Positions 49,499 to 64,000 are shown, counted from the first letter of the stretch. The stretch: DNA of 64,000 bases from Flavobacteriales bacterium (GCA_038108155.1 JAYNHP010000002.1:1067-65066), one strand, 5' to 3'. The notes: generated from the sequence alone by a model not told the origin. Made by a program: numbers and translations.

Positions 49499-49560
49499 AC
49501 AAAGAATTAAAACTATCTAGTTGTACGCTATTTTTCTATAAAAGTTGTCAGAACTTAGAT

Positions 49561-50451: not shown

Positions 50452-50477
50452 TAACTAAATTTAGAAAAAATAACTTC

Positions 50478-51242
50478 TCAAGGGTCTAAACTGCTGAAAA
50501 CTTTTTTCAAAATATCTGTGGTTCTTTTCAATGGATTTTTTCTTATTTCCTTTTCTTGAATTGCTACCAATTTAAATAGCCCAAGAATTGCTCTCTCAGT
50601 AACATATTTATTTAAATCTGTTTCAATAGATTCTTTTCCTGATATTCTAGTGGATTGATTGTATTTTTTTACAAGAGGTTCCCAATAAGCAGTTAGTTTT
50701 ACTTTTTCAATTGCCATTTTTACCTCAGGTAAAAATAACTTATATAGTTGGGTGTTGGTTTGTTCTTTTAAATAATTGGTTGCTGCATTATCACTTCCTT
50801 TTAGTATTTTAAAACCATCACTTACTGACATATTTTTAATTGCATTTATAAAAATTGGCGCAGCTGTTTTACAAGCTTCTTCTGCTGCTTCATTAAGAGT
50901 TCTTTCAAATTTTTCCACTTTTGTATCTAAACCCCACTGCATAGCTTTATCTCTTACAGCTTTTGCTTCTGGCGGAAATGGTATTCTTATTAAATCGTTT
51001 TTTAGAAATCCACCAATTGAAGAAGCTTGCTCGGAACCTTTGTTTACACCAACATTTAATGCTTCTTTAAGACCTTTTATAACTTGATCATTACTTAAAG
51101 TATTAGATACTTCTTTGTCTTGAGTCTGGATTTGAGATTTTACCTTATTGGATATCTTATTGATATTTATCTGTCCAATACAATGGCTAAACATGAAAAT
51201 TGCACATGTTATTACCAAGGAAGATTTAATATTACTTTTCAT
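50478..51242 (-). CDS. DUF4197 family exported protein
   Basis: Signal peptide followed by LSNDQVIKGLKEALNVG...LNEAAEEA...NAATNYL...DLNKYVTERAILGLF...EKEIRKNP..RTTDILKKVF, the characteristic DUF4197 pattern. Confidence 0.7.
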   Translation of the reverse strand: MKSNIKSSLVITCAIFMFSHCIGQININKISNKVKSQIQTQDKEVSNTLSNDQVIKGLKEALNVGVNKGSEQASSIGGFLKNDLIRIPFPPEAKAVRDKAMQWGLDTKVEKFERTLNEAAEEACKTAAPIFINAIKNMSVSDGFKILKGSDNAATNYLKEQTNTQLYKLFLPEVKMAIEKVKLTAYWEPLVKKYNQSTRISGKESIETDLNKYVTERAILGLFKLVAIQEKEIRKNPLKRTTDILKKVFSSLDP

Positions 51243-51321
51243 AAATTATTATTTAATGTTAAATATCAAAAATTTTGCCAAACTAATTCTTATTATGAAA
51301 ACTTAATTTTAATTTAACAGA

Positions 51322-52569
51322 ATGAAGTGCGAATTAATTTCTATAGGAGATGAATTGTTAATTGGACAAACAATTAATACCAATGCTTCTTGGCTTGGAA
51401 AGCAACTAAATAATCTTGGTTTTACTATTGCGCATGGCTTGGTTATTTCTGATCAAAAAATAGATATTATTAATGCTCTTAATCAAGCGGAAAAAAGATC
51501 TGATATTGTTATAATTACTGGTGGTCTTGGACCTACAAATGATGATATTACCAAATATACTTTAACAGAGTATTTTAATACCACTTTAGAACTTGATAAA
51601 GAAATTGAACAAAATATAATTGATTATTTTACTAATAGAAATCTTCCAATTTTACAGACCAATAAAGACCAAGCTCTTTTACCAAAAGCTTGCCAAGTTT
51701 TACCCAACAGTAGAGGATCTGCTAGTGGAATGTGGTTTGAAAAAAACGGAGTAATTTTTATTTCTTTGCCTGGAGTTCCTTACGAAATGAAAGGAATTAT
51801 GAAAGAACATGTTTTTACTAAGCTATTGGCTCTTAAAGGAGAAGGTAATGTAGTAATTAATAGAACTGTAAGAACCCATGGAATGGGAGAATCTTTTTTA
51901 GCTGAGGTAATAAAATCTTGGGAAAATAATTTGATAAAAGACGATTTAAAACTTGCTTATTTACCATCTCCAGGAATTGTTAAATTGAGAATTTCAATTG
52001 TAGGAAAAGATAAATCTTCCTCTGAAAAAAAGTTAAATTATTACGTCTCAGAACTTATTAAGCTTATTCCAGATCAAATATATGGTTATGGAAATGATTC
52101 TATGGAAGGCATTGTTGGAGAATTACTAAAAGAAAATAACAAAACCCTTTCTACAGCTGAGAGTTGTACAGGTGGTAATGTTTCTAAAATGCTTACAAGT
52201 ATCAGCGGAAGCTCTTCATTTTTTAATGGAAGTATTATTTCTTATTCCAATCAATCAAAATCAGATTTATTGGATGTAAATGAAAAAAACATTGAAAAGT
52301 ATGGTGCAGTAAGCAAGCAAGTGGTGGAGCAAATGGCAGTAAACGTTAGGTTAAAGTTTAAGTCTGACTTTGGAATTTCAACATCTGGAATTGCAGGGCC
52401 AAGTGGGGGGACTAACGAAAAGCCAGTTGGAACTGTGTGGATAGCTGTAGCTAATAAAGATAAAGTGATTTCTAAAAAATTAAATTTAGGTTACAATAGA
52501 GAAAGAAACATTCATGTGTCATCACTTTCTGTTTTGAACTTGTTAAGATTAGAACTGTTAAAAAACTAA
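51322..52569 (+). CDS. cinA: CinA family protein (MoCF-like domain plus nicotinamide-mononucleotide amidohydrolase PncC domain)
   Basis: N-terminal LISIGDELLIGQTINTNASWL and GGLGPTNDD; C-terminal TAESCTGG...ISTSGIAGPSGG. Confidence 0.9.
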   Translation: MKCELISIGDELLIGQTINTNASWLGKQLNNLGFTIAHGLVISDQKIDIINALNQAEKRSDIVIITGGLGPTNDDITKYTLTEYFNTTLELDKEIEQNIIDYFTNRNLPILQTNKDQALLPKACQVLPNSRGSASGMWFEKNGVIFISLPGVPYEMKGIMKEHVFTKLLALKGEGNVVINRTVRTHGMGESFLAEVIKSWENNLIKDDLKLAYLPSPGIVKLRISIVGKDKSSSEKKLNYYVSELIKLIPDQIYGYGNDSMEGIVGELLKENNKTLSTAESCTGGNVSKMLTSISGSSSFFNGSIISYSNQSKSDLLDVNEKNIEKYGAVSKQVVEQMAVNVRLKFKSDFGISTSGIAGPSGGTNEKPVGTVWIAVANKDKVISKKLNLGYNRERNIHVSSLSVLNLLRLELLKN

Positions 52570-53747
52570 AACTTTCTTAACCAAGAAATCATTGGAACTG
52601 GTGCAGAATTCAATCCGTTTATTTCATCATAATTAATGAATCCAGCTAAGGCAACTTGGAATGCTTTTTCATACGATTGATTAAACCTCATAGCTGGCAT
52701 TAATATAAAAGTAATATTTCGAGTAGTTTCTTTACTCAAAAAACCTTGTCCGTATGTTGCGATAAATGGAGTAGGCATGCCATTAGAATATCGGTTATAA
52801 ATAATTGTTTTTTCTTTAGTTTCATAATCAACCTTTTGTTTTTCTGCAATAAAAATCATAGAATCAAATATAAAACTTGCTTTTTTCCCAATAGGAGCAA
52901 TTCCAGAAATACCAATTACAGTTGCTAATTGTTGGTTTCTATAAAGATATCTGTCGTTAAAATTAGAAGTCCAGTTATAAAGCCCTAACGAATCTTCAAA
53001 AGCCATTTGAGCATTATAATCATCTTCAGGGATGAAATATGGATGATTTTGGTCATAAAAACTATAGGAATATTTGTCACCAATTTCTCTAGCACCGCTC
53101 ATAAAATCTGTGTTATTGGTTGGCCAATTAATATGAGCCAAACCAGCAGAAAAACTAATGTTAGAGGTTCTGTCACCAATTGTAATTGTCCCCCAATGCA
53201 AACCACCATAGGTCTGGCCTTGGTTGATATATCCGGAAGAACCCAATATACTTCCAATGGAAATGTGGAATTTATTTTTACTATAGATTTGTTGCTTCAA
53301 AACCAACCCTATCGGACTTGCTATCCAACTTGCCATTACACCCAATGAAGTTTTATTTCCTACACTAAAATGAACTTCTGGTCCATAAATATGAACTAGA
53401 GCATAGTTTTCATTTTTTTTAATTGGAAGAGCGTTGTTGGTAAAATAATATCTTGTAGTAAATGGTCCAGATGCTCTAAACTCTCCATTTTTATTACTTT
53501 TTACATTCTCATCTACTTTAGAAATAGAAGAAATTTCGGACTTATTTATATAAATTTTTCCAATAGTTTTTGTGATTAAAAGAATTTCTCTACCATCATC
53601 AGAAACTATTTCTCCAATATATTCACCCCCACTATTTTTTATTATAAGAACTAAGTTTTCTTTTTTTTCTTCAGACTCATTGGGAGTTTGTGCAGAAATC
53701 TGAAATGTTAAAAAAAGTAATATAATTAATGTGGTTAAATTTTTCAT
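52566..53747 (-). CDS. hypothetical exported protein, possible outer-membrane beta-barrel
   Basis: Signal peptide (LIILLFLTFQISAQ), Gly/Ser/aromatic-rich alternating segments and a terminal ...WLRKF. No family recognised. Confidence 0.5.
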   Translation of the reverse strand: MKNLTTLIILLFLTFQISAQTPNESEEKKENLVLIIKNSGGEYIGEIVSDDGREILLITKTIGKIYINKSEISSISKVDENVKSNKNGEFRASGPFTTRYYFTNNALPIKKNENYALVHIYGPEVHFSVGNKTSLGVMASWIASPIGLVLKQQIYSKNKFHISIGSILGSSGYINQGQTYGGLHWGTITIGDRTSNISFSAGLAHINWPTNNTDFMSGAREIGDKYSYSFYDQNHPYFIPEDDYNAQMAFEDSLGLYNWTSNFNDRYLYRNQQLATVIGISGIAPIGKKASFIFDSMIFIAEKQKVDYETKEKTIIYNRYSNGMPTPFIATYGQGFLSKETTRNITFILMPAMRFNQSYEKAFQVALAGFINYDEINGLNSAPVPMISWLRKF

Positions 53748-53823
53748 ATGGTGTAAATATACGCAATATACTAGGAAGGAGTGGTGTTGGAACTTAAAAA
53801 CACCATCTTTAAGGTATTCAATA

Positions 53824-54393
53824 TCATTTATTTAATGACCATTTTTCAATTTCATTTATGGCATCTAATTTGTCTCCCCAACCAATAAATTTCATCTTAT
53901 TAGGCCCTTTGTAATTACAAAACCAAGTTTTAATAATTGTTTTGACTGAATTTGGTAAAGAGTCTTTTGAAAAGTTGACTTTGCTATTATTTAAAGTGGC
54001 AATAACTTTATGATCTTGCTGCCCGCTATCTAATAATTTAAGAATCGCTACTGGGTTTATTTCTATTTTTTTTCCTTGTTGAACTGATTCAGAAATTATT
54101 AAAACATCTAACGCATCTCCGTCTCCCCCAATTTCAGGATCCATATAGGTATTGGATATAAATCCATAATTTCCAGGATATGGAATATAATTTATGGTGC
54201 GTTCTACTCCGTTTATAATCTCAATTTCAAAAGACTTTGTCTTGTAATTATATTCAAACTTTTTATTAGTACCAGCTGGTATCTCTACTATTGCAGTATA
54301 ATTATCAGAAAAGTTTATTAATTCTTTTTTTTCAGTTGAGCAGCTAGAAACCATCCAACATATTAAACAAATTGAAATAATTTTTTTTACCAA
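53824..54393 (-). CDS. ppa: family I inorganic pyrophosphatase with lipoprotein signal peptide
   Basis: Active-site pattern EIPAGTNKKFEY, YPGNYGFI, GDGDALDVLII and DHKVIA, preceded by MVKKIISICLICWMVSSC (lipobox VSSC). Confidence 0.85.
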   Translation of the reverse strand: MVKKIISICLICWMVSSCSTEKKELINFSDNYTAIVEIPAGTNKKFEYNYKTKSFEIEIINGVERTINYIPYPGNYGFISNTYMDPEIGGDGDALDVLIISESVQQGKKIEINPVAILKLLDSGQQDHKVIATLNNSKVNFSKDSLPNSVKTIIKTWFCNYKGPNKMKFIGWGDKLDAINEIEKWSLNK

Positions 54394-54394
54394 T

Positions 54395-54997
54395 TTAATC
54401 TCGGTTATAATAAATGGTAACTGCTGCAGTATCTCTTAAAAAGTCTATTTTTTCTACTTTTACTTCGTGAATTGGCAATCCAGTTCTCTCTTTTAAGTCT
54501 TTAATAAGCTCTTGTTTATTCTCAGGTTTTATAAGTTCTATTTTCTCATATACAATGTTTTTCTTTTCCTCAATAGTTTGAAACCACAATCTATCTATTA
54601 AATAAGTTATTAGAGTAATTAAACCATTGGTGAACAACACTTCGAAAATACTCACAGATTTATTTGAAAGGGCATTGATCATAGAAATTCCAATAACAAT
54701 GAACAAATAAGTCATTTGCCTTATAGGAATGGCTTCTGTACGGTACCTAAGAATACCGAAAACTGCAAATAATCCCAAAGCAAACCCCATTTCCATAGGA
54801 ACTTTCCTTAGAAGAAAACAAATAAAAAAAGTAAGTATATTGAACATTATGTAAGTAAATACATAATCTTTATCATCTTTTACTCTATAATAAATGAGTC
54901 TTACAATTATGATTAGAAAAATGAAGTTTATTCCAAACTTGAATAACAACTTTGAAAAGTCTTCTAAATCAAATAAATCAATTCCATACAATTCCAT
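54395..54997 (-). CDS. DUF4956-like polytopic membrane protein
   Basis: 200 aa with about 5 hydrophobic helices and a ~60-aa soluble C-terminus. It overlaps the VTC gene by 20 nt, which is the usual partner arrangement. Confidence 0.6.
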   Translation of the reverse strand: MELYGIDLFDLEDFSKLLFKFGINFIFLIIIVRLIYYRVKDDKDYVFTYIMFNILTFFICFLLRKVPMEMGFALGLFAVFGILRYRTEAIPIRQMTYLFIVIGISMINALSNKSVSIFEVLFTNGLITLITYLIDRLWFQTIEEKKNIVYEKIELIKPENKQELIKDLKERTGLPIHEVKVEKIDFLRDTAAVTIYYNRD

Positions 54998-55745
54998 TCT
55001 TACTTATTTTATTAATGAATAATAGTTTTCTTTTAAAATTATTGTATTTCAATTTTGGATTTAAAATACAAGAACCAATAGTGTATTTGCTGAACCTAGT
55101 CGGTCTAATTCTTTTAAGCTTTAATATTGAGAGTATCTCAGACTTTCTATTTCCTTTTTCCCTCTTTACTTCAATTATAGATATATTTTCTAATTCTTTA
55201 TTTGAATTATTAGAACTAAACTTCAAATTTAAATCTATTGTGACCCGTTCTTTTGTTTGAAAGTTAACCAAGGTAATTCTATCAAAATTATTTTTAATTG
55301 TTATTTCAAAATCCTTTAACGAGTAAGGTGTTTGTTCCTCCAAAAATTTTATATTTTTTTTGTTTAAATCCTTCTCTTCAAAAGGAACACCAATTCTAGT
55401 TTTTTTAGTGACCCCTTTATTGGATTTAAATTTAACTTCTAAAAAAGTTTTCTTAGATTCTACGTAATCTCTAAATCTAATCTTATACCTGTTTAGCTTT
55501 CCATTTTGATGATTTTTAAAAAGTGTTTTATTCTCGTTGTCAAAATATTCTGTTTGATAATTAAAAAGTCTCTTTCCATCTATTTCAAGGCAGTAATATT
55601 TATCGCTAATTTTTGATAAAACTTCTAAAGTATCTTTAAGAGAAACTGTAAATTTTTCATCTACTCTTTCCATCAATGCAACTTCATCCATAGCTGCTAA
55701 ACTAATAGGTTGATAATTATCTAATATGGATTGAATTTCAGACAT
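54978..55745 (-). CDS. VTC-domain (polyphosphate-polymerase-like, triphosphate-tunnel) protein
   Basis: 255 aa. The motifs L..R.DEKF, YQTEYFD, NRYKIRFRDY and FLEVKFK, with alternating basic residues on beta strands, are typical of the VTC/CYTH tunnel fold. Confidence 0.7.
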   Translation of the reverse strand: MSEIQSILDNYQPISLAAMDEVALMERVDEKFTVSLKDTLEVLSKISDKYYCLEIDGKRLFNYQTEYFDNENKTLFKNHQNGKLNRYKIRFRDYVESKKTFLEVKFKSNKGVTKKTRIGVPFEEKDLNKKNIKFLEEQTPYSLKDFEITIKNNFDRITLVNFQTKERVTIDLNLKFSSNNSNKELENISIIEVKREKGNRKSEILSILKLKRIRPTRFSKYTIGSCILNPKLKYNNFKRKLLFINKISKNGIVWN

Positions 55746-55761
55746 TTAAAATTTTAATCTT

Positions 55762-57450
55762 TTAGTTTTTCTTAAAAGTAGCTTTACCATACTTTTTACC
55801 GTAAAGATAATCTATTACATTATTTTGAAAAACTCTAATTTTTTCTCCATCACAAGTGAGATTAGAATTATACTCTATGAGATTATTTAATAAACAATTG
55901 GTAATCTCATCACTAGTAGATAAAATCTCCGCAGGGCCAAACTCCCCCTTTTTTTGAAAAGCACAATAACCAATTTCACAATCCAATAATTTATTTTCAA
56001 TAGATTCTACAAATGATAAATCTTTTGATATAATTCCCATTGAAGAATTTTGAATCATACAATTAGAAGCCTTTAATTTGCTTTCTTCTCCGGCACTTAT
56101 AGCCTTGTCTTTAATATTTAAAAACTCACTTTCTGATATTTCTAATCTTCCACCTGAAATATCAACACCATCATTTCCGCAATTTGTAAAGCTGCAGTTT
56201 TTCATAAAACCACTACAAAAATCTGCATCAAATGCATCTGAAAATGTATTTTCTATTTTAATATTTTCTATTTTGAATTTACATCTAAATAAATTCACAG
56301 CATCTTCACTTTTTAGATCTTTAAAGTCACTATTCTCAATAGTTACTTTTCCACCATATACCGTAAATGCACTTGGTAGGCTCTGGTGATTATATTTCAA
56401 AGTGTCGTACAATGAAAATTGATTGGAAAAATCTAGGTAATTAATATTACTTGAATCCTTATTTTGAAGGATGTGAATTCCCTCTCCAGTACTATCGGAA
56501 GATGTTACTTTCACCATTTTACCAATTTCTCCGTTTATATTAATGGCACTGTAGGATAAAATACTACTAGAACTAATCAAGTCAATGGTCTCTCCTGCAT
56601 TTAAAACAACCCTAAGTCCTTTGGGAATAATAATCTTCTTTGAGATAGTGGTGTTTTTCTTTTTAAGAAAAATCGAATTCGAGTCTTTAGAATATTTAAA
56701 ATAGTTTAAAAAATCTAAGGATATTTCAGGTCTTAATATTTCAGGAACAATAGATGGAAAAACATCTATTTTCATGCCAGAAAAAATTGGTTCTAACTGA
56801 AAGGTTACTGGATTTAGATAATAATAATTAGGATTTAAATTTTTAAAATATTTTTTAGTTAGATCATTAAATTTTATCCAATCTAATACATTAAAATATT
56901 TATCATTGAGTTTATTTGTTTTGACAAGATCTTCTATTGAGTTTACAAATTTTGGATGAATGATTTCTCCTTTTGTATTTTCTACTTTTATAGAATCGTT
57001 AATTTCAATTTTTAAAATTTCACCTTCTCTCCTTGAATTGGACTCAATAAGTCTTTTTCCTATTTCTTCTTGAAATAAATAATCTTTGTTTTCAATGGTA
57101 ATTAATTTAGAATAAACTCCAATAAGATCGTTTGATTTTAAATCTTCATTAAACGCAATAATTGATCGGGCTAATTCTAAATACTTGCTATCATTAAGAG
57201 CGTATAATCTAAACTTTTTTTTCCTGTAGATTCTTTTTCCGTTTTTACAATGAAAGGAAATATATTCTTTGGTTTTAAATACTTTTACTTTGATAGTATC
57301 GCTTTCAAAATATAAATTGACCAGTTCATTATTTCCTATATTCAATATTGGTTTTTCAAATGAAAAGTTGTTGGTTACTTGGTTTTTATTTTCCTGACAA
57401 GAATTTAAAAATAAAGCTAGAAATAGAAATATGAGAATTTTATTATTCAT
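55762..57450 (-). CDS. lipoprotein with C-terminal right-handed parallel beta-helix repeats
   Basis: Lipobox (LFLNSC). The C-terminal ~230 aa contain repeated short beta-helix turns (NCSFTNCGNDGVDISGGRLEISESEFLNIKDKAISAGEESKLKASNCMIQNSSMGII...). The ATG at 57450 is preferred to the TTG at 57465. Confidence 0.6.
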   Translation of the reverse strand: MNNKILIFLFLALFLNSCQENKNQVTNNFSFEKPILNIGNNELVNLYFESDTIKVKVFKTKEYISFHCKNGKRIYRKKKFRLYALNDSKYLELARSIIAFNEDLKSNDLIGVYSKLITIENKDYLFQEEIGKRLIESNSRREGEILKIEINDSIKVENTKGEIIHPKFVNSIEDLVKTNKLNDKYFNVLDWIKFNDLTKKYFKNLNPNYYYLNPVTFQLEPIFSGMKIDVFPSIVPEILRPEISLDFLNYFKYSKDSNSIFLKKKNTTISKKIIIPKGLRVVLNAGETIDLISSSSILSYSAININGEIGKMVKVTSSDSTGEGIHILQNKDSSNINYLDFSNQFSLYDTLKYNHQSLPSAFTVYGGKVTIENSDFKDLKSEDAVNLFRCKFKIENIKIENTFSDAFDADFCSGFMKNCSFTNCGNDGVDISGGRLEISESEFLNIKDKAISAGEESKLKASNCMIQNSSMGIISKDLSFVESIENKLLDCEIGYCAFQKKGEFGPAEILSTSDEITNCLLNNLIEYNSNLTCDGEKIRVFQNNVIDYLYGKKYGKATFKKN

Positions 57451-57503
57451 TTGATTATGTAACAATTGATAATTTTTCCAAACAAAACTTTACAAATGTA
57501 AAA

Positions 57504-58874
57504 TTACTTTGAGATTAATTGCATACTAGATATATCTATTTGGTATAAATCTGTATCTCCCATATTTTCGATATTATAATAGCCACCAACATAAGCTGTA
57601 TTACCATCTTTTGAAATACATATTGTTTTTTCCTCCATAGTGGTATTAATAGGGCTTCCTATGTTAATAGGTGAACTCCAATTTTCATGACCGCCGGTAC
57701 AATAGTATATATCGTAACTTCCAACACTTTGTTTTCTTCCATTTGATGTAAAGAAAAGTAAGTTTCCACTTGGGTGAATAAAAACACATTTTTCATCTCC
57801 CGGAGTATTAATTTCGTTCCCTAGGTGAATTGGTTCTGAATAAGTTTTATTAGTTTTTTTAACATAGTATATATCTGTTTTGCCTAAACCAGTTGGTCTT
57901 TCAGAAACAAAATATATGTAAGATTCATCCTCTGTAATACTAGCAGAACTTTCGAAATAGGAGCTATTTATTTTGTTGCTGATTTTTTTGTCTTTATTTA
58001 AAATTGGTTTTGGTGAAGACCAACTACCAGATTTTGTGTACGCAGCTTCGTATATATCTCCACTTCTAGTTAAATATGGAATATTTCTATAAATTATTAT
58101 TGAATTATCAGCTTTGAAACTTAAAGAGGCATCGTGAAAATCAGTATTTATTTTTCCCAATTTATTGGATGGATTTAACCACTTTTCCCCAATACTGTCC
58201 CATTTAGATAAGTATATATCTGAAAAATACTGATGGTCAAAATACTGATCAACATTTCCTCCTTTGGTATCAGCTCTTCTGGAGGTGAACATTAAATATT
58301 TTCCGTTATTGCTCAACGAAGGTGCAAAATCAGATCCTTTTGAATTAAGGACTGGACCCATATTTGAAATAATTATTTTATTATTTGTTTTCTTCAACTC
58401 TAACTCTGCAAAAGCCAATTGACTAATTTTTAAATCTATCGAGTAGTCTTTAATTTTTTGTTTGGATTTTATTTCAGAAACAAATTTTTCATAACTGGTT
58501 TTAGACTTTTTTAATTCTTCTAGTCTAAAGTAAATTTCTCCCATTAAATAATATAAATCTTCATCTACTTTTGGATCGTTCTTTTCTGCAATTTCTGCAT
58601 GGTATTTTGCCTTTTTGTAGTCATGTAATTTGTAATAACATCTCGAAATTCCAAAATGAGCTTTTGCGCTTGAGGGATTTAAAGCAATAATTTCTTTATA
58701 ATTTAAAAGTGCAGTTTTAATATTACCTTGTAAATAAAGTTGTTTTGTTTCTGTAAGTTTTATTTGAGATTTAGTTTTGTTTAAAAGACCTTCCTCCTGA
58801 GATAAAGCAGATTTTACATTGAATATTACAAGAAACAATAGAACTAACTTGAAAATAAATTTTTGGTGTTTCAT
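57504..58874 (-). CDS. exported TPR plus PD40 (TolB-like beta-propeller) repeat protein
   Basis: Signal peptide, N-terminal TPR-like helices (YKEIIALNPSSAKAHFGISRCYYKLHDYKKAKYHAE) and repeated PD40-like units (GSDFAPSLSNNGKYLMFTS, ESSASITEDESYIYFVSE, DEKCVFIHPSGNLLFFTS). Confidence 0.65.
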   Translation of the reverse strand: MKHQKFIFKLVLLFLVIFNVKSALSQEEGLLNKTKSQIKLTETKQLYLQGNIKTALLNYKEIIALNPSSAKAHFGISRCYYKLHDYKKAKYHAEIAEKNDPKVDEDLYYLMGEIYFRLEELKKSKTSYEKFVSEIKSKQKIKDYSIDLKISQLAFAELELKKTNNKIIISNMGPVLNSKGSDFAPSLSNNGKYLMFTSRRADTKGGNVDQYFDHQYFSDIYLSKWDSIGEKWLNPSNKLGKINTDFHDASLSFKADNSIIIYRNIPYLTRSGDIYEAAYTKSGSWSSPKPILNKDKKISNKINSSYFESSASITEDESYIYFVSERPTGLGKTDIYYVKKTNKTYSEPIHLGNEINTPGDEKCVFIHPSGNLLFFTSNGRKQSVGSYDIYYCTGGHENWSSPINIGSPINTTMEEKTICISKDGNTAYVGGYYNIENMGDTDLYQIDISSMQLISK

Positions 58875-58974
58875 AAGAAATATGTTTTCTAAAATTAAAT
58901 AAATATAATGGTATTGTCATAATTTTACTTTACTATCCACCATATTGTTAAATTTACAGTATTAAATAATAGAT

Positions 58975-60318
58975 ATGTCCAATTATTCTTTGAATGCCAT
59001 AAGCCCTATTGACGGAAGATACTTTGATAAAACAAAGGTCCTTAGTTCTTTTTTTTCTGAGTCCTCCTTGATTCGCTATAGAGTAAAAGTTGAAATTGAA
59101 TACTTTATATCCTTATGTGAATTACCTCTTCCACAATTAAAAAATTTTGACAGTAACCTTTTTCAAACCTTAAGATCTTATTACGAGAGTTTTGATGATA
59201 GCGATGCTCAAAGAGTAAAAGATATTGAATCTACAACCAATCACGATGTGAAAGCTGTGGAGTATTTTATTAAGGAAAGAATGGATAAAGATGGTATTGG
59301 TGATGCTAAGGAGTTTGTCCATTTTGGACTTACTTCTCAAGATATTAATAATACTGCTATTCCAATGAGTATAAAGGATGCATTAGAAAATATATATCAA
59401 CCAGCAATTGATAGTCTTATCAAGAATCTAGAAATACTTTCCAATCAGTGGTCCTCGATCCCAATGTTGGCTAAAACCCATGGTCAGCCAGCATCTCCTA
59501 CCAATTTGGGCAAAGAAATTTATGTATTTGTTGAAAGATTAAATCAACAGTTAGAGACCCTAAAGTCCATAATCCATGCTGGAAAATTTGGAGGAGCAAC
59601 TGGAAATTTTAATGCCCATCATGTTGCTTATCCGTCCATAGATTGGAAAAAATTTGCCAACGATTTCTTAGCAGATAAATTAAAATTGGTAAGATCCCAA
59701 ACAACCACCCAAATTGAACATTATGATCACTTGGCATCTTTATTTGATGTCGTTAAAAGAATAAATACAATAATATTGGACTTAAATAGAGATATGTGGA
59801 CCTATATTTCTATGGATTATTTTAAACAGAAAATTAAAAAAGGAGAAATTGGATCTTCTGCCATGCCTCATAAGGTGAATCCTATTGACTTTGAGAATTC
59901 TGAAGGAAATATTGGTATTGCCAATGCGATTTTAGAGCATTTAAGCGCAAAACTGCCAGTAAGTAGACTACAAAGAGATTTAACAGACAGTACAGTTCTT
60001 AGAAATATTGGTGTCCCTTTTTCACATGGACTAATTGCAATTTTATCTACCCAAAAAGGATTGGATAAGCTTCTTTTAAATAACGTTGCTATTGAAAAAG
60101 ATTTAGAAAATAATTGGGCTGTAGTTGCAGAAGCAATTCAAACTATTTTAAGAAGAGAGGGAGTTGAAAATCCTTACGAATTATTGAAAAATCTAACAAG
60201 GAAAAATGAGAAAATCACCCAAAAATCATTGAGAAATTTTATAGATAATTTGGATGTTTCTGAAGATTTAAAAACAGAGTTGAATCAAATAACTCCCTTC
60301 AATTACACAGGTATATAA
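58975..60318 (+). CDS. purB: adenylosuccinate lyase
   Basis: Fumarate-lyase signature GSSAMPHKVNP plus TSQDINNTA. 447 aa. Confidence 0.96.
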   Translation: MSNYSLNAISPIDGRYFDKTKVLSSFFSESSLIRYRVKVEIEYFISLCELPLPQLKNFDSNLFQTLRSYYESFDDSDAQRVKDIESTTNHDVKAVEYFIKERMDKDGIGDAKEFVHFGLTSQDINNTAIPMSIKDALENIYQPAIDSLIKNLEILSNQWSSIPMLAKTHGQPASPTNLGKEIYVFVERLNQQLETLKSIIHAGKFGGATGNFNAHHVAYPSIDWKKFANDFLADKLKLVRSQTTTQIEHYDHLASLFDVVKRINTIILDLNRDMWTYISMDYFKQKIKKGEIGSSAMPHKVNPIDFENSEGNIGIANAILEHLSAKLPVSRLQRDLTDSTVLRNIGVPFSHGLIAILSTQKGLDKLLLNNVAIEKDLENNWAVVAEAIQTILRREGVENPYELLKNLTRKNEKITQKSLRNFIDNLDVSEDLKTELNQITPFNYTGI

Positions 60319-60327
60319 TTTTAATAA

Positions 60328-61014
60328 TTAAAGTTTCATTATTGTCACTGCTGCTATACAAGCAGTTTCAGTTCTCAGTCTATTGTTTCCAAGACTAACC
60401 ATGTTGTATTTATTTACTTTTGCAAGTTCAATTTCCTCATATGTAAAATCTCCTTCGGGGCCTATGACTATAACTTGTGATTCTAAAGAGTTTGAAATTG
60501 TTTTTAATTGAATTTTGTCTTCTTTTTTGCAATGAGCTAGAAACTTTAATTTGCAAGAGTTTTTTTCAATAAAGTGGTTAAATTTTTCGACAGGATGAAT
60601 TGTTGGTAACCAAAACCTTTGTGACTGTTTAATAGTAGAAATTAAAACCTTTTCGAACCTTTCTATATTCCATTTTCTTCTTTCAGAATTTTGTGAAATA
60701 AGTGGAAAAAAGTCAGTAACACCAATTTCTGTAGCTTTTTCGATTATTAATTTATTTCTATCGTTATTTTTTGTTGGACAAAATGCTAGAGTTAATGGAA
60801 CAGGCTTTTTAAACTCTTTAAGCTTATGGATTTTTATTTTTATTTTTTTGGTGCTAGAGTCGATAATTTCTCCTTCACCATACAATCCATTACCATTAAT
60901 AATTGATAAATCATCTTTGTTCTTCATTCTTAAAACTTTAATGGCATGTCGAGATTCACTTTCGGTCAAAAAGCATATTCCATTTTCAATACTATCTGTT
61001 AAAAAAGTTGTCAC
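60328..61014 (-). CDS. rsmE: 16S rRNA (uracil1498-N3)-methyltransferase
   Basis: 228 aa with an N-terminal PUA-like region (ESRHAIKVLRMK) and a C-terminal SPOUT knot (IGPEGDFT..E.......LG...LR.ETA). Confidence 0.88.
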   Translation of the reverse strand: MTTFLTDSIENGICFLTESESRHAIKVLRMKNKDDLSIINGNGLYGEGEIIDSSTKKIKIKIHKLKEFKKPVPLTLAFCPTKNNDRNKLIIEKATEIGVTDFFPLISQNSERRKWNIERFEKVLISTIKQSQRFWLPTIHPVEKFNHFIEKNSCKLKFLAHCKKEDKIQLKTISNSLESQVIVIGPEGDFTYEEIELAKVNKYNMVSLGNNRLRTETACIAAVTIMKL

Positions 61015-61119
61015 TCCGTTATCATTTTAAGAATAATTCAATGTAAATATTTAAAATTGAAAAAAAATAATGTAATTTAGAATCAACTAATAACAAAATT
61101 AATAATCAAAACATATACC

Positions 61120-61686
61120 ATGAATTTTTTTAAATATCTTTTTTCAATTACGTTAGTTCTTACTTTTTTAACCATTAATGCTCAGACAAAAAAAATAGAA
61201 GATGTTGAATTTAGTTCTGTTCAAGAAATTAATGGTGAAGAAACTGTTTTAAATGGAGGGGGGTTAAGAGAAAAGTATGGATTTATGGATTTGTATGTTG
61301 GTGGACTATACATAAATAAAAAATCATCAGATGCAAATAAAATCATTATGGCTGATGAAAATATGGGAATTAGAATTGTTATTGTTTCTAGTTTAGTTAC
61401 AAGAGAAAGATTTATCGAAGCTTTGGAAGAGGGTTTTGTAAATACAACCGCAGGAAAATCATCTCCATCAGATCTAGAAAAGTTTAAAAAATTCCTAAGT
61501 GATCCTTTTATTGAGGGAGACGAAATTGTTCTTAATTACCATAAAGGCGAAGCAGTTCATTTATACAAAAACAATAAAGAAAGAGGAACTTTTGATGGTC
61601 TAGAGTTTAAACAAGCACTTTTTGGTATTTGGCTCGGTGGAAACCCTGCAGATGATAGTCTTAAAGAAGAAATGTTAGGACTTTAA
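61120..61686 (+). CDS. chalcone-isomerase-like family exported protein
   Basis: Signal peptide followed by LNGGGLREKYGFMDLYVGGLYI...ALFGIWLG, typical of bacterial chalcone-isomerase-like proteins. Confidence 0.65.
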   Translation: MNFFKYLFSITLVLTFLTINAQTKKIEDVEFSSVQEINGEETVLNGGGLREKYGFMDLYVGGLYINKKSSDANKIIMADENMGIRIVIVSSLVTRERFIEALEEGFVNTTAGKSSPSDLEKFKKFLSDPFIEGDEIVLNYHKGEAVHLYKNNKERGTFDGLEFKQALFGIWLGGNPADDSLKEEMLGL

Positions 61687-61690
61687 TTAG

Positions 61691-62527
61691 TTATTTTACT
61701 GCTTTTAAACTCAAGTCCATATTATTGACAGAGTGAGTCAAAGCTCCAACAGAAATATAGTCAACACCACACATTGCATAGTTTTTTATTGTATCTAAAT
61801 TTATACCACCGGAGGCTTCAGTTTCATATAGGCCATTGATTAATTCAACTCCTGTTTTTAAATCTTGATAGTTAAAATTATCCATCATTATTCTATGCAC
61901 ATTTCCACACTCTAAAACTTGTCTGACTTCTTCTAAATTTCTAGTTTCAATTTCAATTTTTATATCCAATTTTTTTTCATTTAAATAGTTATTGGTTTTT
62001 TCAATTGCTTGTTGGATTCCACCTGCAAAATCTATGTGGTTATCTTTTAACATAACCATATCGTAAAGTCCAAATCTATGGTTGAAACCACCTCCTATTT
62101 TAACAGCTTCTTTTTCTAGAAACCTGTTTAAAGGGGTAGTTTTTCTTGTGTCTAAAATTTTACAATTCAAACCCTTTAGTTTTTCAACATATTTATTAGT
62201 CAAAGTTGAAATGGCACTCATTCTTTGCATTACATTTAAAACCAATCTTTCAATAGTTAATATAGAACCAGATTTCCCACTAACAATAAAAGCAATATCT
62301 CCAATAGATACCTTTTGTCCGTCCTTTAGAATACTTTTAAAATCAATAGTTGGATCGTAGCAATTAAATATTTCTTTAGCTAAATTAATTCCAGAAATTA
62401 TTCCATTTTCTTTTACTAGCAGCTTTGCTGAACCTTTACTACTTTTTGGTATACAAGAAAGGGTAGAGTGATCCCCTTTTTTAACATCTTCTTGAATTGC
62501 TAATTTTACAAATTGATTTATTTCCAT
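61691..62527 (-). CDS. nadC: nicotinate-nucleotide diphosphorylase (carboxylating)
   Basis: 278 aa with DTRKTTP, DMVMLKDNH, IEIE, MMDNF, ASGGI and ISVGALTHS. Confidence 0.93.
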   Translation of the reverse strand: MEINQFVKLAIQEDVKKGDHSTLSCIPKSSKGSAKLLVKENGIISGINLAKEIFNCYDPTIDFKSILKDGQKVSIGDIAFIVSGKSGSILTIERLVLNVMQRMSAISTLTNKYVEKLKGLNCKILDTRKTTPLNRFLEKEAVKIGGGFNHRFGLYDMVMLKDNHIDFAGGIQQAIEKTNNYLNEKKLDIKIEIETRNLEEVRQVLECGNVHRIMMDNFNYQDLKTGVELINGLYETEASGGINLDTIKNYAMCGVDYISVGALTHSVNNMDLSLKAVK

Positions 62528-62530
62528 AAT

Positions 62531-63999
62531 TTAAAGTTTAGAAATATTTTTAAAATATTGAGTCATATTTTTTTTAAAATTTTCAGGCCTATTAAGACAA
62601 AATTTTTCTATAACATTTAATCCCTTTTTATATTTTTTTGTTCCACTTTCATAACCCCATCTATTGTAATGTTCTTTAACCATTGGGGAAAATGATTTTT
62701 TAAATTCTATAAAATGGGCCATTAAGTTTTCAGATGAAAGTTCATTTTCAAGAAGGTAATTAACTCTTTTAGTAAACAATATCTCGAACTCAGTTTGCTT
62801 TAGCAAATAATTAATTAATTCTCCTCCTAAAGCTGGAGACCAATCTCTTTGGACATAATCAAACATATTAAATTTTGGACTTCCAACACTTGCATCCATA
62901 TCTATCAAAACAGCATTCCAAGGCTTTTTGCCTTTTCTTTTTTTCCAAAAAAAAGTATTGTTGCAAGGCCAGTCATTATTTTGAAAAAATAGTTCAATTA
63001 TGAACCAATCTACAATAGAGCTCATATTGAAATTTTTTGCAATTTTTTCATAATCAGTTTTTGGGTTTTTCTTTATTTCAAGAAGTAGACTATTCAAATC
63101 TCCGTATCCCTTTTTTTTAGAATATCCCTTATCATCTGCATCAACTAATTTTTTTACTTTTATTTTATATTTATTAGAAATTGCCTTTAAGTCCATTCTT
63201 TCTCTTAATCCATGGATTCCCCAGTACTCTCCATTTAAATAGACCAAAACAGGTTTGTAGCTCATTACATCTACATTTAAATTTTCACATACTTTAGAAA
63301 TCCAACCATCGACAAATATTTCGTTTCCCCAACCTGAAAAAGAAGATCTCAAAATAATTTTATCAATTTCATGATTTACCTCTAAAAGAGTATTTACTTT
63401 GTTTTTTTGATTGATATAAAATCTAAGGCTTTTTTGGGGAGCTAAGGGAGTAATATATCCATGAATTCTAAAAGGAAAGCTGCCCTTTAAAAATATTTCA
63501 TTTTTGTTAAATATTTCAATCTCTCCAGCTTGTTTTCTCTTTTTAAACTTGTAGAAATTTCCAGATGTTTGGTCTTTTTCTTTAACGAAACTATTTCCTG
63601 GAACATAGCATCCTTCTTCAGGATCAAATAGAGTTTTGGAATCTACTTTTAAATTTACTACTGAAAAATTAAGTTCAGATTTTAACCCCAATAAATAATT
63701 ATATATAGAAGAATCCACAACTATATTATTTTTTAGTGCAATCACTTTAACTTGATGAAAAGAAGAAAATTCACCAATAGGTGCTTTCCAATTATTTACA
63801 TATTTACTGTAGTTTTCAATTGCTGTTGGTATCTTAATGAGTTTTGGAACTAATTTTTTTAAATGGTAAGTTATTTCATTAGATCCTGTAATTGTGTCCA
63901 GATTGTAAATCAATTTTAAATTTAAGTCACTCCCGGTTTTGAATGTAACTAAAATAGAATCTTCACTGTAGCTTCCAGAAATATAATTGCTTGATATTG
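62531..63999 (-). CDS. CotH kinase-like family protein (5' end outside window)
   Basis: Core motif VLVYLNGEYWGIHGLRERMD. The frame stays open upstream of the TTG at 63913 to the window edge (TISSNYISGSYSEDSILVTFKTGSDLNLK...). Confidence 0.75.
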   Translation of the reverse strand, partial: ISSNYISGSYSEDSILVTFKTGSDLNLKLIYNLDTITGSNEITYHLKKLVPKLIKIPTAIENYSKYVNNWKAPIGEFSSFHQVKVIALKNNIVVDSSIYNYLLGLKSELNFSVVNLKVDSKTLFDPEEGCYVPGNSFVKEKDQTSGNFYKFKKRKQAGEIEIFNKNEIFLKGSFPFRIHGYITPLAPQKSLRFYINQKNKVNTLLEVNHEIDKIILRSSFSGWGNEIFVDGWISKVCENLNVDVMSYKPVLVYLNGEYWGIHGLRERMDLKAISNKYKIKVKKLVDADDKGYSKKKGYGDLNSLLLEIKKNPKTDYEKIAKNFNMSSIVDWFIIELFFQNNDWPCNNTFFWKKRKGKKPWNAVLIDMDASVGSPKFNMFDYVQRDWSPALGGELINYLLKQTEFEILFTKRVNYLLENELSSENLMAHFIEFKKSFSPMVKEHYNRWGYESGTKKYKKGLNVIEKFCLNRPENFKKNMTQYFKNISKL

Positions 64000-64000
64000 T

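What the first reader, a model, noticed from the sequence alone, without database searches (positions are those of the whole stretch)
53824..58874. VTC-domain / DUF4956 / lipoprotein pyrophosphatase / beta-helix lipoprotein cluster: candidate split polyphosphate polymerase-translocase module
Five minus-strand genes sit head to tail with almost no spacing. In order they are the TPR-PD40 protein, then (38-53 nt) the beta-helix lipoprotein, then (16 nt) the VTC-domain protein, then (20-nt overlap) the DUF4956 membrane protein, then (1 nt) a lipobox-bearing family I pyrophosphatase. The VTC domain is the triphosphate-tunnel catalytic module of the eukaryotic vacuolar transporter chaperone. That complex makes polyphosphate from ATP and threads it through its own membrane domain. 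Here the tunnel domain is a separate soluble 255-aa protein, translationally coupled to a membrane protein of about 5 TM helices, and followed by enzymes predicted to work outside the cytoplasm. My inference is that this is a split bacterial analogue that polymerises a phosphoanhydride product and exports it, with PPi clean-up in the periplasm. As far as I know, bacterial VTC/DUF4956 pairs have no experimentally defined function. This is the least ordinary gene set in the window.
Basis: partly seen in the sequence, partly recalled or inferred. Interest (0 to 1): 0.7.

Follow-up and report, generated by a model that had tools for sequence, protein, structure and literature searches.

The report
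Bacterial Vtc4-like polyphosphate module with lipoproteins
A marine Flavobacteriales bacterium has a tightly packed gene set that pairs a yeast-type polyphosphate-making enzyme with a membrane protein and two exported lipoproteins, which suggests, without proving it, that bacteria can make polyphosphate by a third route and pass it out of the cytoplasm.

Summary
All five minus-strand genes, their gaps and their domain assignments check out.

The conserved unit is four genes, not five: beta-helix lipoprotein, VTC, DUF4956, lipoprotein pyrophosphatase. This block recurs in two clades whose VTC proteins are only about 45-47% identical and whose flanks differ. The TPR-PD40 gene is conserved only among close relatives.

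- **VTC:** it folds like the yeast Vtc4 catalytic tunnel. It keeps the Mn-binding glutamate and seven of the eight residues needed for polyphosphate synthesis, including the lysine that the inactive Vtc2/3 lack. The eighth, Tyr359, is Phe.
- **DUF4956:** it has five membrane helices and an ACT-like domain predicted to be cytoplasmic. It is unrelated to the yeast VTC channel.
- **Pyrophosphatase:** it keeps every catalytic residue and an invariant lipobox cysteine.
- **New finding:** the beta-helix lipoprotein is a CotH-kinase-derived remnant fused to a beta-helix. Its family sits almost always next to VTC.

The wider CotH/VTC/DUF4956 neighbourhood has been noted in the literature but its mechanism is unknown. 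Export of polyphosphate is the best-supported reading, but it is an inference. The "PPi clean-up" rationale is weak.

The parts
55762..57465 (-). Lipoprotein (562-567 aa; likely start is the ATG at 57450). It has an N-terminal CotH-derived remnant without the kinase motifs (about residues 49-235) and a C-terminal Asp-rich right-handed beta-helix (about residues 250-565; motifs FSDAFDADF, GNDGVDISG, DKAISAGE, FQKKGEFGP).
   Evidence: Pfam Beta_helix 4.4e-08. Lipobox conserved in 12 orthologs. hhalign of the N-terminal part against the CotH-bearing part of 42 long relatives: probability 99.2%, E 2.6e-19. 29 of 55 sampled relatives carry a Pfam CotH domain. VTC is the next gene in 47 of 56 metagenome loci found with this protein.
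54978..55745 (-). Stand-alone VTC-domain protein (255 aa), a Vtc4-like triphosphate-tunnel enzyme and candidate polyphosphate polymerase. It is cytoplasmic (no signal peptide).
   Evidence: PF09359 2.5e-21. AlphaFold pLDDT 89. Foldseek top hits are Vtc4 structures 3G3R/3G3Q, E 1.6e-12, TM 0.65. Profile against PDB hits Vtc4 at 4e-13. The alignment maps R196/K200, R264, R266, K281, R361, R373, E426, K428, S457 and K458 onto R27/K31, R90, R92, K105, R156, R167, E192, K194, S219 and K220. Y359 maps onto F154.
54395..54997 (-). DUF4956 inner-membrane protein (200 aa). It has 5 transmembrane helices, predicted N-terminus out and C-terminus in, a conserved cytoplasmic GILRYRT loop and a C-terminal beta-alpha-beta-beta (ACT-like) domain. 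Its start overlaps the VTC gene by 20 nt.
   Evidence: PF16316 3.7e-55. AlphaFold pLDDT 80 with helices at 11-40, 43-62, 69-86, 92-110 and 117-138, then strands at 142-199. Positive-inside counts over 49 sequences. Follows VTC in 108 loci, median gap -20 nt. No significant PDB fold match.
53824..54393 (-). Lipoprotein family I inorganic pyrophosphatase (189 aa), catalytically intact and predicted to act outside the cytoplasm.
   Evidence: PF00719 2.2e-29. Best PDB match 1QEZ, 8e-16. Far below NCBIfam equivalog cut-offs, 62 against 200 bits. Across 27 distinct orthologs the lipobox Cys18 and E37, K45, E47, R65, Y72, Y76, D91, D93, D96, D122, D127, K129, Y161 and K162 are invariant. It is the next gene after DUF4956 in 27 of 28 loci that have the short beta-helix gene.
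57504..58874 (-). TPR plus PD40 beta-propeller protein with a signal peptide (456 aa). It resembles the N-terminal two thirds of PorE/CHU_0125 but lacks the OmpA domain. It is adjacent; membership of the module is not shown.
   Evidence: Pfam PD40 and TPR. NCBIfam PorE 131 bits against a cut-off of 600. Present at position -2 only in the close clade, where all flanking genes are syntenic, and absent from the second clade (L013, L104, L128).
62531..64000 (-). CotH kinase-family gene, open to the window end, so its N-terminus is outside the window. It is a possible distal partner of the module, separated from it by four housekeeping genes.
   Evidence: PF08757 4.9e-34. The reading frame has no stop up to base 64000. 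The ortholog in L006 is 534 aa with a lipobox. CotH is fused to the same beta-helix domain in many relatives and sits next to VTC/DUF4956 in many other loci.
52566..53747 (-). 393-aa protein of unknown family with a signal peptide and a C-terminal Phe (outer-membrane-protein-like). It lies 76 nt downstream of the pyrophosphatase gene. Membership is doubtful.
   Evidence: No Pfam or NCBIfam hit. Present after the pyrophosphatase gene in only part of the close clade. No profile similarity to DUF2490.

Best explanation
The window carries a four-gene, probably co-transcribed module: beta-helix lipoprotein, VTC, DUF4956, lipoprotein pyrophosphatase.

The 255-aa VTC protein is a cytoplasmic, Vtc4-type triphosphate-tunnel enzyme. 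It most likely transfers the gamma-phosphate of ATP onto a growing polyphosphate chain. It is made together with DUF4956 by translational coupling and probably docks on it. DUF4956 is a five-helix inner-membrane protein whose conserved basic RYRT loop and ACT-like domain face the cytoplasm.

The product, polyphosphate or a short phosphoanhydride chain, is then passed to the periplasmic side. There two lipoproteins deal with it. The CotH-derived beta-helix protein, with its invariant Asp-rich and presumably metal-binding face, binds or processes it. The family I pyrophosphatase hydrolyses PPi or short chains, as soluble family I enzymes of acidocalcisomes do.

What is shown:
- The gene order and its conservation.
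- The Vtc4-like fold and catalytic residues.
- The topology prediction.
- The conserved lipoboxes.
- The intact pyrophosphatase active site.
- The CotH ancestry of the beta-helix protein.

What is inferred:
- Polymerase activity.
- Physical coupling of VTC and DUF4956.
- Translocation through DUF4956.
- The substrates of the two lipoproteins.
For: - Vtc4 is the best structural match. The Mn-binding Glu and 7 of the 8 residues whose mutation lowers yeast polyP are invariant in 17 diverse bacterial VTC proteins, including the K458 equivalent that is Ile/Leu in the inactive Vtc2/3.
- VTC and DUF4956 are adjacent on the same strand in 82 of 83 genome loci. Over 108 pairs the median gap is -20 nt.
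- DUF4956 is predicted N-out/C-in, so its conserved loop and soluble domain face the VTC protein.
- Every recurrent partner of the pair is an exported protein. These are the beta-helix lipoprotein, the lipoprotein pyrophosphatase, the DUF2490 outer-membrane barrel, CotH lipoproteins or CotH with a T9SS tail, and Cthe_2159.
- The reverse search starting from the beta-helix protein lands next to VTC in 47 of 56 loci.
- The four-gene block is kept in two clades with unrelated flanks, and the pyrophosphatase follows in 27 of 28 loci.
- The pyrophosphatase has a full catalytic set.
Against: - No bacterial VTC protein has been assayed. The Tyr359 equivalent is Phe in this clade, and Y359F lowers polyP in yeast.
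- DUF4956 has no fold similarity to the VTC channel or to any solved transporter. A five-helix monomer is unlikely to form a pore without oligomerising. Its 5-TM plus ACT layout resembles MgtC, which is a regulator, not a channel.
- Making polyP with ATP and then hydrolysing it outside looks wasteful.
- VTC chemistry does not produce PPi.
- No outer-membrane component is encoded in the block.
- Operon status rests only on spacing and the absence of terminator-like sites.
Confidence: 0.45

Rival explanations
1. Phosphoryl-supply line for surface kinases. The VTC/DUF4956 pair exports polyphosphate mainly as the phosphoryl or energy donor for extracytoplasmic CotH-family proteins, which have no ATP outside the cell. 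These proteins modify surface proteins or glycans. In this window the CotH-derived beta-helix lipoprotein would be the adaptor, the CotH lipoprotein at 62531-64000 the kinase, and the pyrophosphatase would remove the end products.
For: - CotH is the most frequent enzymatic partner of VTC/DUF4956 in Bacteroidota and Firmicutes.
- CotH is fused to the same beta-helix domain in 29 of 55 sampled relatives.
- CotH partners are lipoproteins, often with acidic stretches after the Cys, or carry a T9SS tail.
- Some trios lie inside glycan-synthesis clusters or next to pel operons.
- DUF4956 and CotH mutants of S. intermedius lower Pel-dependent aggregation.
- CotH is related to the Fam20 secretory-pathway kinases.
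Against: - No CotH enzyme is known to use polyphosphate. Bacillus CotH uses ATP inside the mother cell.
- The window's CotH gene is 3.6 kb away, behind four housekeeping genes, and no CotH was detected in the stretches held for the second clade (up to 6-10 kb each side).
- The beta-helix protein has lost the CotH motifs.
Confidence: 0.2
2. Cytoplasmic polyphosphate synthesis with a membrane regulator. VTC makes polyP that stays in the cytoplasm. DUF4956 only anchors or regulates it, through an ACT-like ligand-sensing domain as in MgtC. The exported neighbours act on something else.
For: - The 5-TM plus ACT-like architecture resembles MgtC.
- There is no fold match to any channel.
- The bacterial proteins lack the SPX regulatory domain, so another sensor is needed.
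- LytTR two-component genes accompany some loci.
Against: - It does not explain why essentially every conserved partner is exported.
- It does not explain why the beta-helix family is found next to VTC in 47 of 56 loci.
- Pfam MgtC is not hit even at E <= 1.
Confidence: 0.2
3. Not a polymerase. The tunnel enzyme is a hydrolase or cyclase like other bacterial triphosphate-tunnel proteins (ygiF, CYTH), for instance a tripolyphosphatase. The module then serves phosphate scavenging or signalling.
For: - ygiF and CYTH proteins are the next-best structural matches.
- Tyr359 is replaced by Phe.
- The clade keeps two extra invariant basic residues, R86 and K88, that Vtc4 lacks.
Against: - Vtc4/Vtc2/Vtc3 fill the first 13 ranks of the fold search. 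The sequence profile hits only VTC proteins in the PDB.
- The Lys458 equivalent and the SKY motif are invariant.
- Pfam assigns VTC, not CYTH.
Confidence: 0.1
4. Chance neighbours. The five genes are merely packed together in a streamlined genome and have no common function.
For: - The genome is compact.
- The TPR-PD40 gene and the CotH gene are conserved only within a syntenic clade.
Against: - The four-gene block recurs with different flanks.
- The pyrophosphatase follows in 27 of 28 loci with the short beta-helix gene, against 0 of 65 without it.
- VTC is next to the beta-helix gene in 47 of 56 loci in the reverse search.
- Overlapping start and stop codons are the rule across the family.
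Confidence: 0.03

Closest known systems
Eukaryotic VTC complex (yeast Vtc4/Vtc3 or Vtc2/Vtc1), a coupled polyphosphate polymerase and translocase
   Same: - Same Pfam domain (PF09359) and tunnel fold.
- Same Mn-binding Glu and same basic residues around the triphosphate, including Lys458.
- A cytoplasmic catalytic part next to a membrane part.
- Lumen and periplasm are topologically equivalent.

   Different: - No SPX domain.
- The catalytic domain is a separate 255-aa protein.
- No 3-helix DUF202-type membrane domain and no Vtc1. The membrane partner is the unrelated 5-helix DUF4956.
- Tyr359 is Phe.
Bacterial CotH / 'polyphosphate polymerase' (VTC) / DUF4956 accessory genes: Gram-positive pel loci, S. 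intermedius SIR_1592-1594, C. perfringens NELoc-2
   Same: Same VTC-DUF4956 pair, linked to exported CotH-family proteins and to extracellular polymer loci.
   Different: - Here the adjacent exported partner is a CotH-derived beta-helix lipoprotein without the kinase motifs.
- A lipoprotein pyrophosphatase is added.
- No pel, DUF4832 or diguanylate cyclase gene was seen among the genes profiled at 49000-64000; the rest of the window was not screened.
- The host is a Gram-negative marine Flavobacteriales bacterium.
Common Bacteroidota arrangement VTC-DUF4956-DUF2490, with or without CotH, Cthe_2159 or a LytTR two-component system (e.g. B. thetaiotaomicron BT3498-3499)
   Same: Same core pair with the same overlap, in the same phylum. 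All partners are exported.
   Different: - The window lacks the DUF2490 outer-membrane barrel.
- It has the beta-helix gene upstream and the pyrophosphatase gene downstream instead.
- The two arrangements are mutually exclusive in the 93 loci scored.
Family I soluble inorganic pyrophosphatases, including the acidocalcisomal enzyme of trypanosomes
   Same: Same fold family and a complete catalytic residue set. The acidocalcisomal enzyme also works on the far side of a membrane that carries a VTC polymerase (the acidocalcisome context is from general knowledge).
   Different: - It has a lipoprotein signal peptide.
- It is strongly divergent, at 62 bits against the 200-bit equivalog cut-off.
- Its substrate is untested.
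CotH atypical kinases (Bacillus spore coat; related to Fam20 secretory kinases)
   Same: [quoted passage not shown] A true CotH gene lies at 62531-64000.
   Different: The beta-helix protein does not hit Pfam CotH. It lacks the RLKGD..DH..KWS block and the residues after the LEPI motif that the long forms keep, so it is probably not a kinase.
MgtC/SapB family (5 transmembrane helices plus a cytoplasmic ACT domain)
   Same: Same overall layout, as noted for the streptococcal DUF4956 protein.
   Different: There is no sequence match to Pfam MgtC at E <= 1. MgtC is a regulator of other membrane proteins and has no partner polymerase.

Membership tests
Eukaryotic VTC polyphosphate polymerase (Vtc4-type catalytic subunit) | VTC/triphosphate-tunnel domain | tested here: met
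   PF09359 2.5e-21. Foldseek top hits are Vtc4 3G3R/3G3Q, E 1.6e-12, TM 0.65. Profile against PDB hits Vtc4 at 4.2e-13.
Eukaryotic VTC polyphosphate polymerase (Vtc4-type catalytic subunit) | Residues required for polyP synthesis: K200, R264, R266, K281, R361, S457, K458, Y359, plus the Mn ligand E426 | tested here: met
   K31, R90, R92, K105, R156, S219, K220 and E192 are invariant in 17 diverse bacterial VTC proteins. The exception is Y359, which is F154 in this clade.
Eukaryotic VTC polyphosphate polymerase (Vtc4-type catalytic subunit) | Lys at position 458 (Ile/Leu in the inactive Vtc2/Vtc3) | tested here: met
   K220 lies in the invariant SKY motif.
Eukaryotic VTC complex | N-terminal SPX regulatory domain | tested here: not met
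   The 255-aa protein has only the VTC domain.
Eukaryotic VTC complex | C-terminal 3-helix membrane domain and Vtc1 subunits forming a pentameric pore | tested here: not met
   The VTC protein has no membrane helices. The DUF4956 model gives no Foldseek hit to 7YTJ/8I6V membrane chains, and the best E-value overall is 0.1.
Eukaryotic VTC complex | ATP-dependent polyP synthesis coupled to translocation | not testable with these tools
   Needs enzyme and transport assays.
Bacterial CotH-VTC-DUF4956 gene cluster (pel accessory genes, NELoc-2) | VTC gene immediately followed by a DUF4956 gene | tested here: met
   20-nt overlap in the window. 82 of 83 genome loci.
Bacterial CotH-VTC-DUF4956 gene cluster (pel accessory genes, NELoc-2) | Adjacent CotH kinase gene | tested here: inconclusive
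   The true CotH gene is 3.6 kb away. The adjacent gene is a CotH-derived remnant fused to a beta-helix.
Bacterial CotH-VTC-DUF4956 gene cluster (pel accessory genes, NELoc-2) | Contiguity with a pel operon | tested here: not met
   No pel-like gene was seen among the genes profiled at 49000-64000. The rest of the window was not screened for pel genes.
DUF4956 (PF16316) | Match to the family model over its full length | tested here: met
   3.7e-55, model positions 1-169 of 169.
Family I inorganic pyrophosphatase | PF00719 match and the full set of active-site Asp/Glu/Lys/Arg/Tyr residues | tested here: met
   2.2e-29. Invariant E37, K45, E47, R65, Y72, Y76, D91, D93, D96, D122, D127, K129, Y161 and K162. 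Mapping onto the E. coli numbering is from general knowledge.
Family I inorganic pyrophosphatase | Housekeeping cytoplasmic enzyme (NCBIfam equivalog) | tested here: not met
   62.5 bits against a cut-off of 200. Lipobox Cys invariant in 27 sequences.
CotH kinase (PF08757), for the beta-helix lipoprotein | Match to the CotH model and retention of its conserved blocks | tested here: not met
   No Pfam CotH hit at E <= 1 in 8 orthologs. The RLKGD..DH..KWS block is absent. Homology to the CotH-bearing region of the long relatives is nevertheless clear.
MgtC/SapB, for the DUF4956 protein | Match to the MgtC model | tested here: not met
   Not among the hits at E <= 1.
PorE / CHU_0125 OmpA-like proteins, for the TPR-PD40 protein | Score above the family cut-off and a C-terminal OmpA domain | tested here: not met
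   131 and 119 bits against cut-offs of 600 and 620. The match ends at about model position 400 of 640.
Known anti-phage defence systems | Any PADLOC model hit | tested here: not met
   0 hits for six proteins.

The most novel reading that the evidence does not exclude
Bacteria have a third, VTC-type route to polyphosphate. It is wired to the cell envelope: polyphosphate is made at the inner membrane, handed across by DUF4956, and used outside the cytoplasm as the phosphoryl or energy donor for CotH-family proteins and their beta-helix partners. This would be an ATP-independent supply line for phosphorylating surface proteins or glycans. The window would show a reduced form of it, with a pseudokinase-beta-helix adaptor and a periplasmic pyrophosphatase.
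Probability: 0.15. Interest if true: 0.9.

Novelty: new variant of a known kind. Interest (0 to 1): 0.62.

Why it matters
Bacterial polyphosphate is thought to come from PPK1 and PPK2 and to stay in the cytoplasm. A Vtc4-like enzyme with an intact active site changes that picture. It is hard-wired across thousands of genomes to a membrane protein and to exported partners, which points to a different polymerase and to a use of polyphosphate outside the cytoplasm.

That would bear on three questions:
- How extracytoplasmic kinases such as CotH get a phosphoryl donor.
- How biofilm matrices such as Pel are modified.
- How polyphosphate is cycled in the ocean. This organism is very abundant in marine metagenomes: the identical DUF4956 protein was seen on 113 contigs.

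The window's four-gene form is small, has no paralog clutter, and would be a convenient system for reconstitution. The finding that the beta-helix partner descends from CotH ties the two known kinds of neighbourhood together.

Tried and rejected
- **Direct sequence searches against the PDB.** The VTC protein alone and a profile of 18 close relatives found nothing relevant. Only a profile that included distant VTC proteins reached Vtc4.
- **First homologue search with the DUF4956 protein.** It returned only near-identical marine sequences and was useless for alignment depth. A profile query fixed this.
- **DUF4956 model against the PDB.** No significant match. There were only weak ACT-like partial hits, so no relationship to Vtc1, MscS or any transporter can be claimed.
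- **Beta-helix protein against the PDB.** Nothing by sequence or by profile.
- **Profile comparisons that were negative.** These were the beta-helix protein against stand-alone CotH of the Bacteroidota loci, against Cthe_2159 and against DUF2490, and the 393-aa downstream protein against DUF2490. The CotH link appeared only through the long fusion relatives.
- **Sigma-70 promoter scan.** At background, 39 found against 39.4 expected, and not suited to Bacteroidota.
- **PADLOC.** No defence-system hit.
- **Literature searches.** No functional study of a bacterial VTC protein was found. The CotH structure paper (PMC4922149) is not held.
- **Considered and rejected.**
  - TPR-PD40 as a core part, because it is conserved only in the syntenic clade.
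  - "PPi clean-up" as the role of the pyrophosphatase, because the polymerase reaction does not release PPi.
- **Not done.**

Full report
**1. Observation**

They are TPR-PD40 (57504-58874), a beta-helix lipoprotein (55762-57465), VTC (54978-55745), DUF4956 (54395-54997) and a family I pyrophosphatase (53824-54393, TTG start).

Pfam confirms every assignment: PD40 9e-21, Beta_helix 4.4e-08, VTC 2.5e-21, DUF4956 3.7e-55 and Pyrophosphatase 2.2e-29.

The gaps are 38 nt, 16 nt, a 20-nt overlap and 1 nt. The first gap is 53 nt if the ATG at 57450 is the start, as the ortholog alignment suggests. Both putative lipoproteins have a signal peptide ending in a lipobox, and the cysteine is conserved in all orthologs. 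No terminator-like site lies on the minus strand between 52400 and 59100. The host is an uncultured, very abundant marine Flavobacteriales lineage with about 29% G+C, MED-G20- or Parvicellaceae-like.

**2. What is conserved**

I fetched 80 genome loci across Bacteroidota with a VTC profile, added three contigs, and clustered their ORFs.

- VTC is followed by DUF4956 on the same strand in 82 of 83 loci. Over all 108 pairs held, the median gap is -20 nt and 70 pairs overlap. Translational coupling is therefore a property of the family.
- The commonest third gene is DUF2490 (46 loci). It is a predicted outer-membrane barrel.
- DUF2490 is often followed by a CotH lipoprotein, a Cthe_2159 beta-helix protein or a LytTR two-component pair.
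- The window's arrangement is rarer. It occurs in a close clade (VTC 61-96% identical) where everything around is syntenic.
- It also occurs in a second clade (L012, L013, L024, L104, L105, L110, L128, L145; VTC about 45-47% identical), whose flanks are unrelated.
- In that second clade the block is beta-helix lipoprotein, VTC, DUF4956, pyrophosphatase, with no TPR-PD40 gene.
- Where a short beta-helix gene precedes the pair and there is room downstream, the next gene is the pyrophosphatase in 27 of 28 loci. Without it, the figure is 0 of 65.

The conserved unit is therefore four genes. TPR-PD40 membership is unproven.

**3. Reverse test**

Starting from the beta-helix protein, a metagenome scan gave 65 loci. 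Of the 56 with at least 400 nt downstream, 47 have VTC as the very next gene. This holds even for relatives only 27-40% identical over the matched beta-helix stretch. Those form DUF4956-beta-helix-VTC trios inside glycan-synthesis clusters with GT61, a C-methyltransferase and rml genes. This beta-helix family is a dedicated partner of VTC.

**4. The VTC protein**

The AlphaFold model has pLDDT 89. It matches yeast Vtc4 catalytic-domain structures first (E 1.6e-12, TM 0.65). Vtc4, Vtc2 and Vtc3 chains fill the first 13 ranks, followed by ygiF and CYTH proteins.

A profile of 17 diverse bacterial VTC proteins hits only VTC proteins in the PDB (Vtc4 at 4e-13). The alignment maps the yeast residues onto the window protein as follows:

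| Yeast Vtc4 | Window VTC |
|---|---|
| R196 / K200 | R27 / K31 |
| R264, R266 | R90, R92 |
| K281 | K105 |
| R361 | R156 |
| R373 | R167 |
| E426 | E192 |
| K428 | K194 |
| S457, K458 | S219, K220 |

All of these are invariant in the 17 sequences.

In yeast, K200, R264, R266, K281, R361, S457, K458 and Y359 are needed for polyP synthesis. E426 holds the Mn ion. K458 is the one residue that the inactive Vtc2 and Vtc3 lack. The window protein has that lysine. The one departure is Y359, which is F154 in this clade but Tyr in the distant bacterial forms. There is no SPX domain and no membrane segment.

**5. DUF4956**

The model has pLDDT 80 and shows five helices through the hydrophobic part, followed by a beta-alpha-beta-beta domain at 142-199.

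Counts of Lys and Arg over 49 sequences give 2.9, 3.2 and 3.6 for the loop between helices 1 and 2, the loop between helices 3 and 4, and the stretch after helix 5. The alternate segments give 1.35, 1.1 and 1.9, and the N-terminus is strongly acidic. The prediction is N-terminus out and C-terminus in. The invariant GILRYRT loop and the ACT-like domain therefore face the cytoplasm and the VTC protein.

Foldseek finds nothing significant. There is no Vtc1 or Vtc4 membrane domain and no transporter, only weak ACT-like partial hits. Pfam MgtC is not hit, although the layout resembles MgtC, as noted for the streptococcal homologue. A channel role is therefore an inference from context only.

**6. 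The pyrophosphatase**

It matches archaeal and bacterial family I enzymes (1QEZ, 8e-16) but scores far below NCBIfam equivalog cut-offs. Across 27 distinct orthologs the lipobox cysteine and the full catalytic set are invariant. It is probably an active enzyme tethered outside the cytoplasm.

Because the VTC reaction uses nucleoside triphosphates to extend polyP and does not release PPi, "PPi clean-up" is not a compelling role. Trimming or turnover of exported chains is more plausible, as with the soluble family I enzyme of acidocalcisomes. This is untested.

**7. The beta-helix lipoprotein is CotH-derived**

- A search of 1.84 billion representatives gave 5572 relatives at E <= 1e-3. Most are 850-1010 aa, with the window protein's residues about 250-565 at their C-terminus.
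- Of 55 sampled relatives, 29 carry a Pfam CotH domain in front of the beta-helix.
- It lacks their RLKGD..DH..KWS block and the residues after the LEPI motif, and it does not hit Pfam CotH.

It is thus a kinase-less CotH remnant plus an Asp-rich beta-helix. A real CotH gene lies at 62531-64000 and runs off the window end. Its ortholog is a lipoprotein. The fusion evidence links CotH and the beta-helix domain functionally. However, the window's CotH gene is separated from the module by four housekeeping genes, and no CotH was detected in the stretches held for the second clade (up to 6-10 kb each side).

**8. Literature**

- The trio CotH, "polyphosphate polymerase" and DUF4956 was noted next to Gram-positive pel operons and in C. 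perfringens NELoc-2.
- In S. intermedius, mutants of the DUF4956 and CotH genes reduce Pel-dependent aggregation, and the mechanism was left open.
- BT3498-3499 (DUF4956, DUF2490) appear in a B. thetaiotaomicron iron stimulon table.
- I found no assay of any bacterial VTC protein.

**9. Interpretation**

The best-supported reading is that VTC is a Vtc4-like polymerase working at the inner membrane with DUF4956, and that its product reaches the periplasm, where the two lipoproteins act on it. The strongest argument is contextual. A cytoplasmic enzyme and an inner-membrane protein are linked, across phyla, almost exclusively to exported proteins.

The weakest links are the untested polymerase activity (with Y359 replaced), the lack of any precedent for DUF4956 as a conduit, and the unclear benefit of exporting and hydrolysing polyP.

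The rivals are:
- a polyP supply line for CotH-type surface kinases (attractive but unproven);
- cytoplasmic polyP with DUF4956 as a regulator;
- a hydrolase rather than a polymerase;
- chance adjacency, which is excluded for the four core genes.

**10. Verdict**

The finding belongs to a recognised but functionally unexplained bacterial gene neighbourhood, and it represents a distinct variant of it. The link between the beta-helix partner and CotH is new as far as I could find. It is worth experimental follow-up. It is not categorically new.

Noticed in passing
window 62531-64000 (-): The CotH gene has no stop codon up to the window end, so the listed 460-aa ORF is truncated. Orthologs are 520-534 aa lipoproteins (L006, L008, L010).
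   Followed up: partly
window 52566-53747 (-): A 393-aa protein with a signal peptide, a C-terminal Phe and no family hit lies 76 nt downstream of the pyrophosphatase gene. It is present in only some close relatives. It could be an outer-membrane protein but shows no profile similarity to DUF2490.
   Followed up: partly
L130-L148 (e.g. L137:3429-7021): A distinct lineage has DUF4956 (205 aa), a beta-helix protein (about 789 aa) and a short VTC (about 198 aa) inside a glycan-synthesis cluster with GT61, a C-methyltransferase and rml-like genes. The gene order differs from the window, with DUF4956 first.
   Followed up: partly
L002:6703-9939 and L011: A 1078-aa CotH protein with LTD, CHB_HEX_C_1 and a T9SS sorting tail lies directly upstream of VTC-DUF4956, which points to secretion of CotH to the cell surface.
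   Followed up: no
L015, L022, L023, L028, L064 and others, position +3: CotH lipoproteins next to DUF2490 often have a run of Asp/Glu right after the lipobox Cys. This resembles the Bacteroidota signal for surface exposure of lipoproteins.
   Followed up: no
L107:5307-7888: The beta-helix gene is followed directly by DUF4956 with only 68 nt between them and no VTC gene, an exception to the rule.
   Followed up: no
L117:2-3561: A high-G+C contig from outside Bacteroidota has DUF4956 followed by an 857-aa relative of the beta-helix protein, so the pairing is not confined to one phylum.
   Followed up: no
L044 (NJBF01000097.1): A contig filed under 'Candidatus Heimdallarchaeota archaeon B3_Heim' carries a Bacteroidota-like VTC-DUF4956 pair (43% identity to the window VTC). 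This is probably a binning contaminant.
   Followed up: no
L003:6470-7348: A PPK2 gene lies three genes upstream of VTC-DUF4956-DUF2490 in one Bacteroidota contig. This may be coincidence.
   Followed up: no
window 54395-54997 (protein P0121): The identical DUF4956 protein was recorded on 113 contigs from several sources, including Tara. Hundreds of 97-100% variants exist, so the organism is very abundant in marine metagenomes.
   Followed up: no
L010 and L102, downstream of the module: A second, longer TPR-PD40 protein (614-665 aa, PorE-like length) lies on the opposite strand. The 456-aa TPR-PD40 protein of the window may therefore be a shortened paralog unrelated to the module.
   Followed up: no
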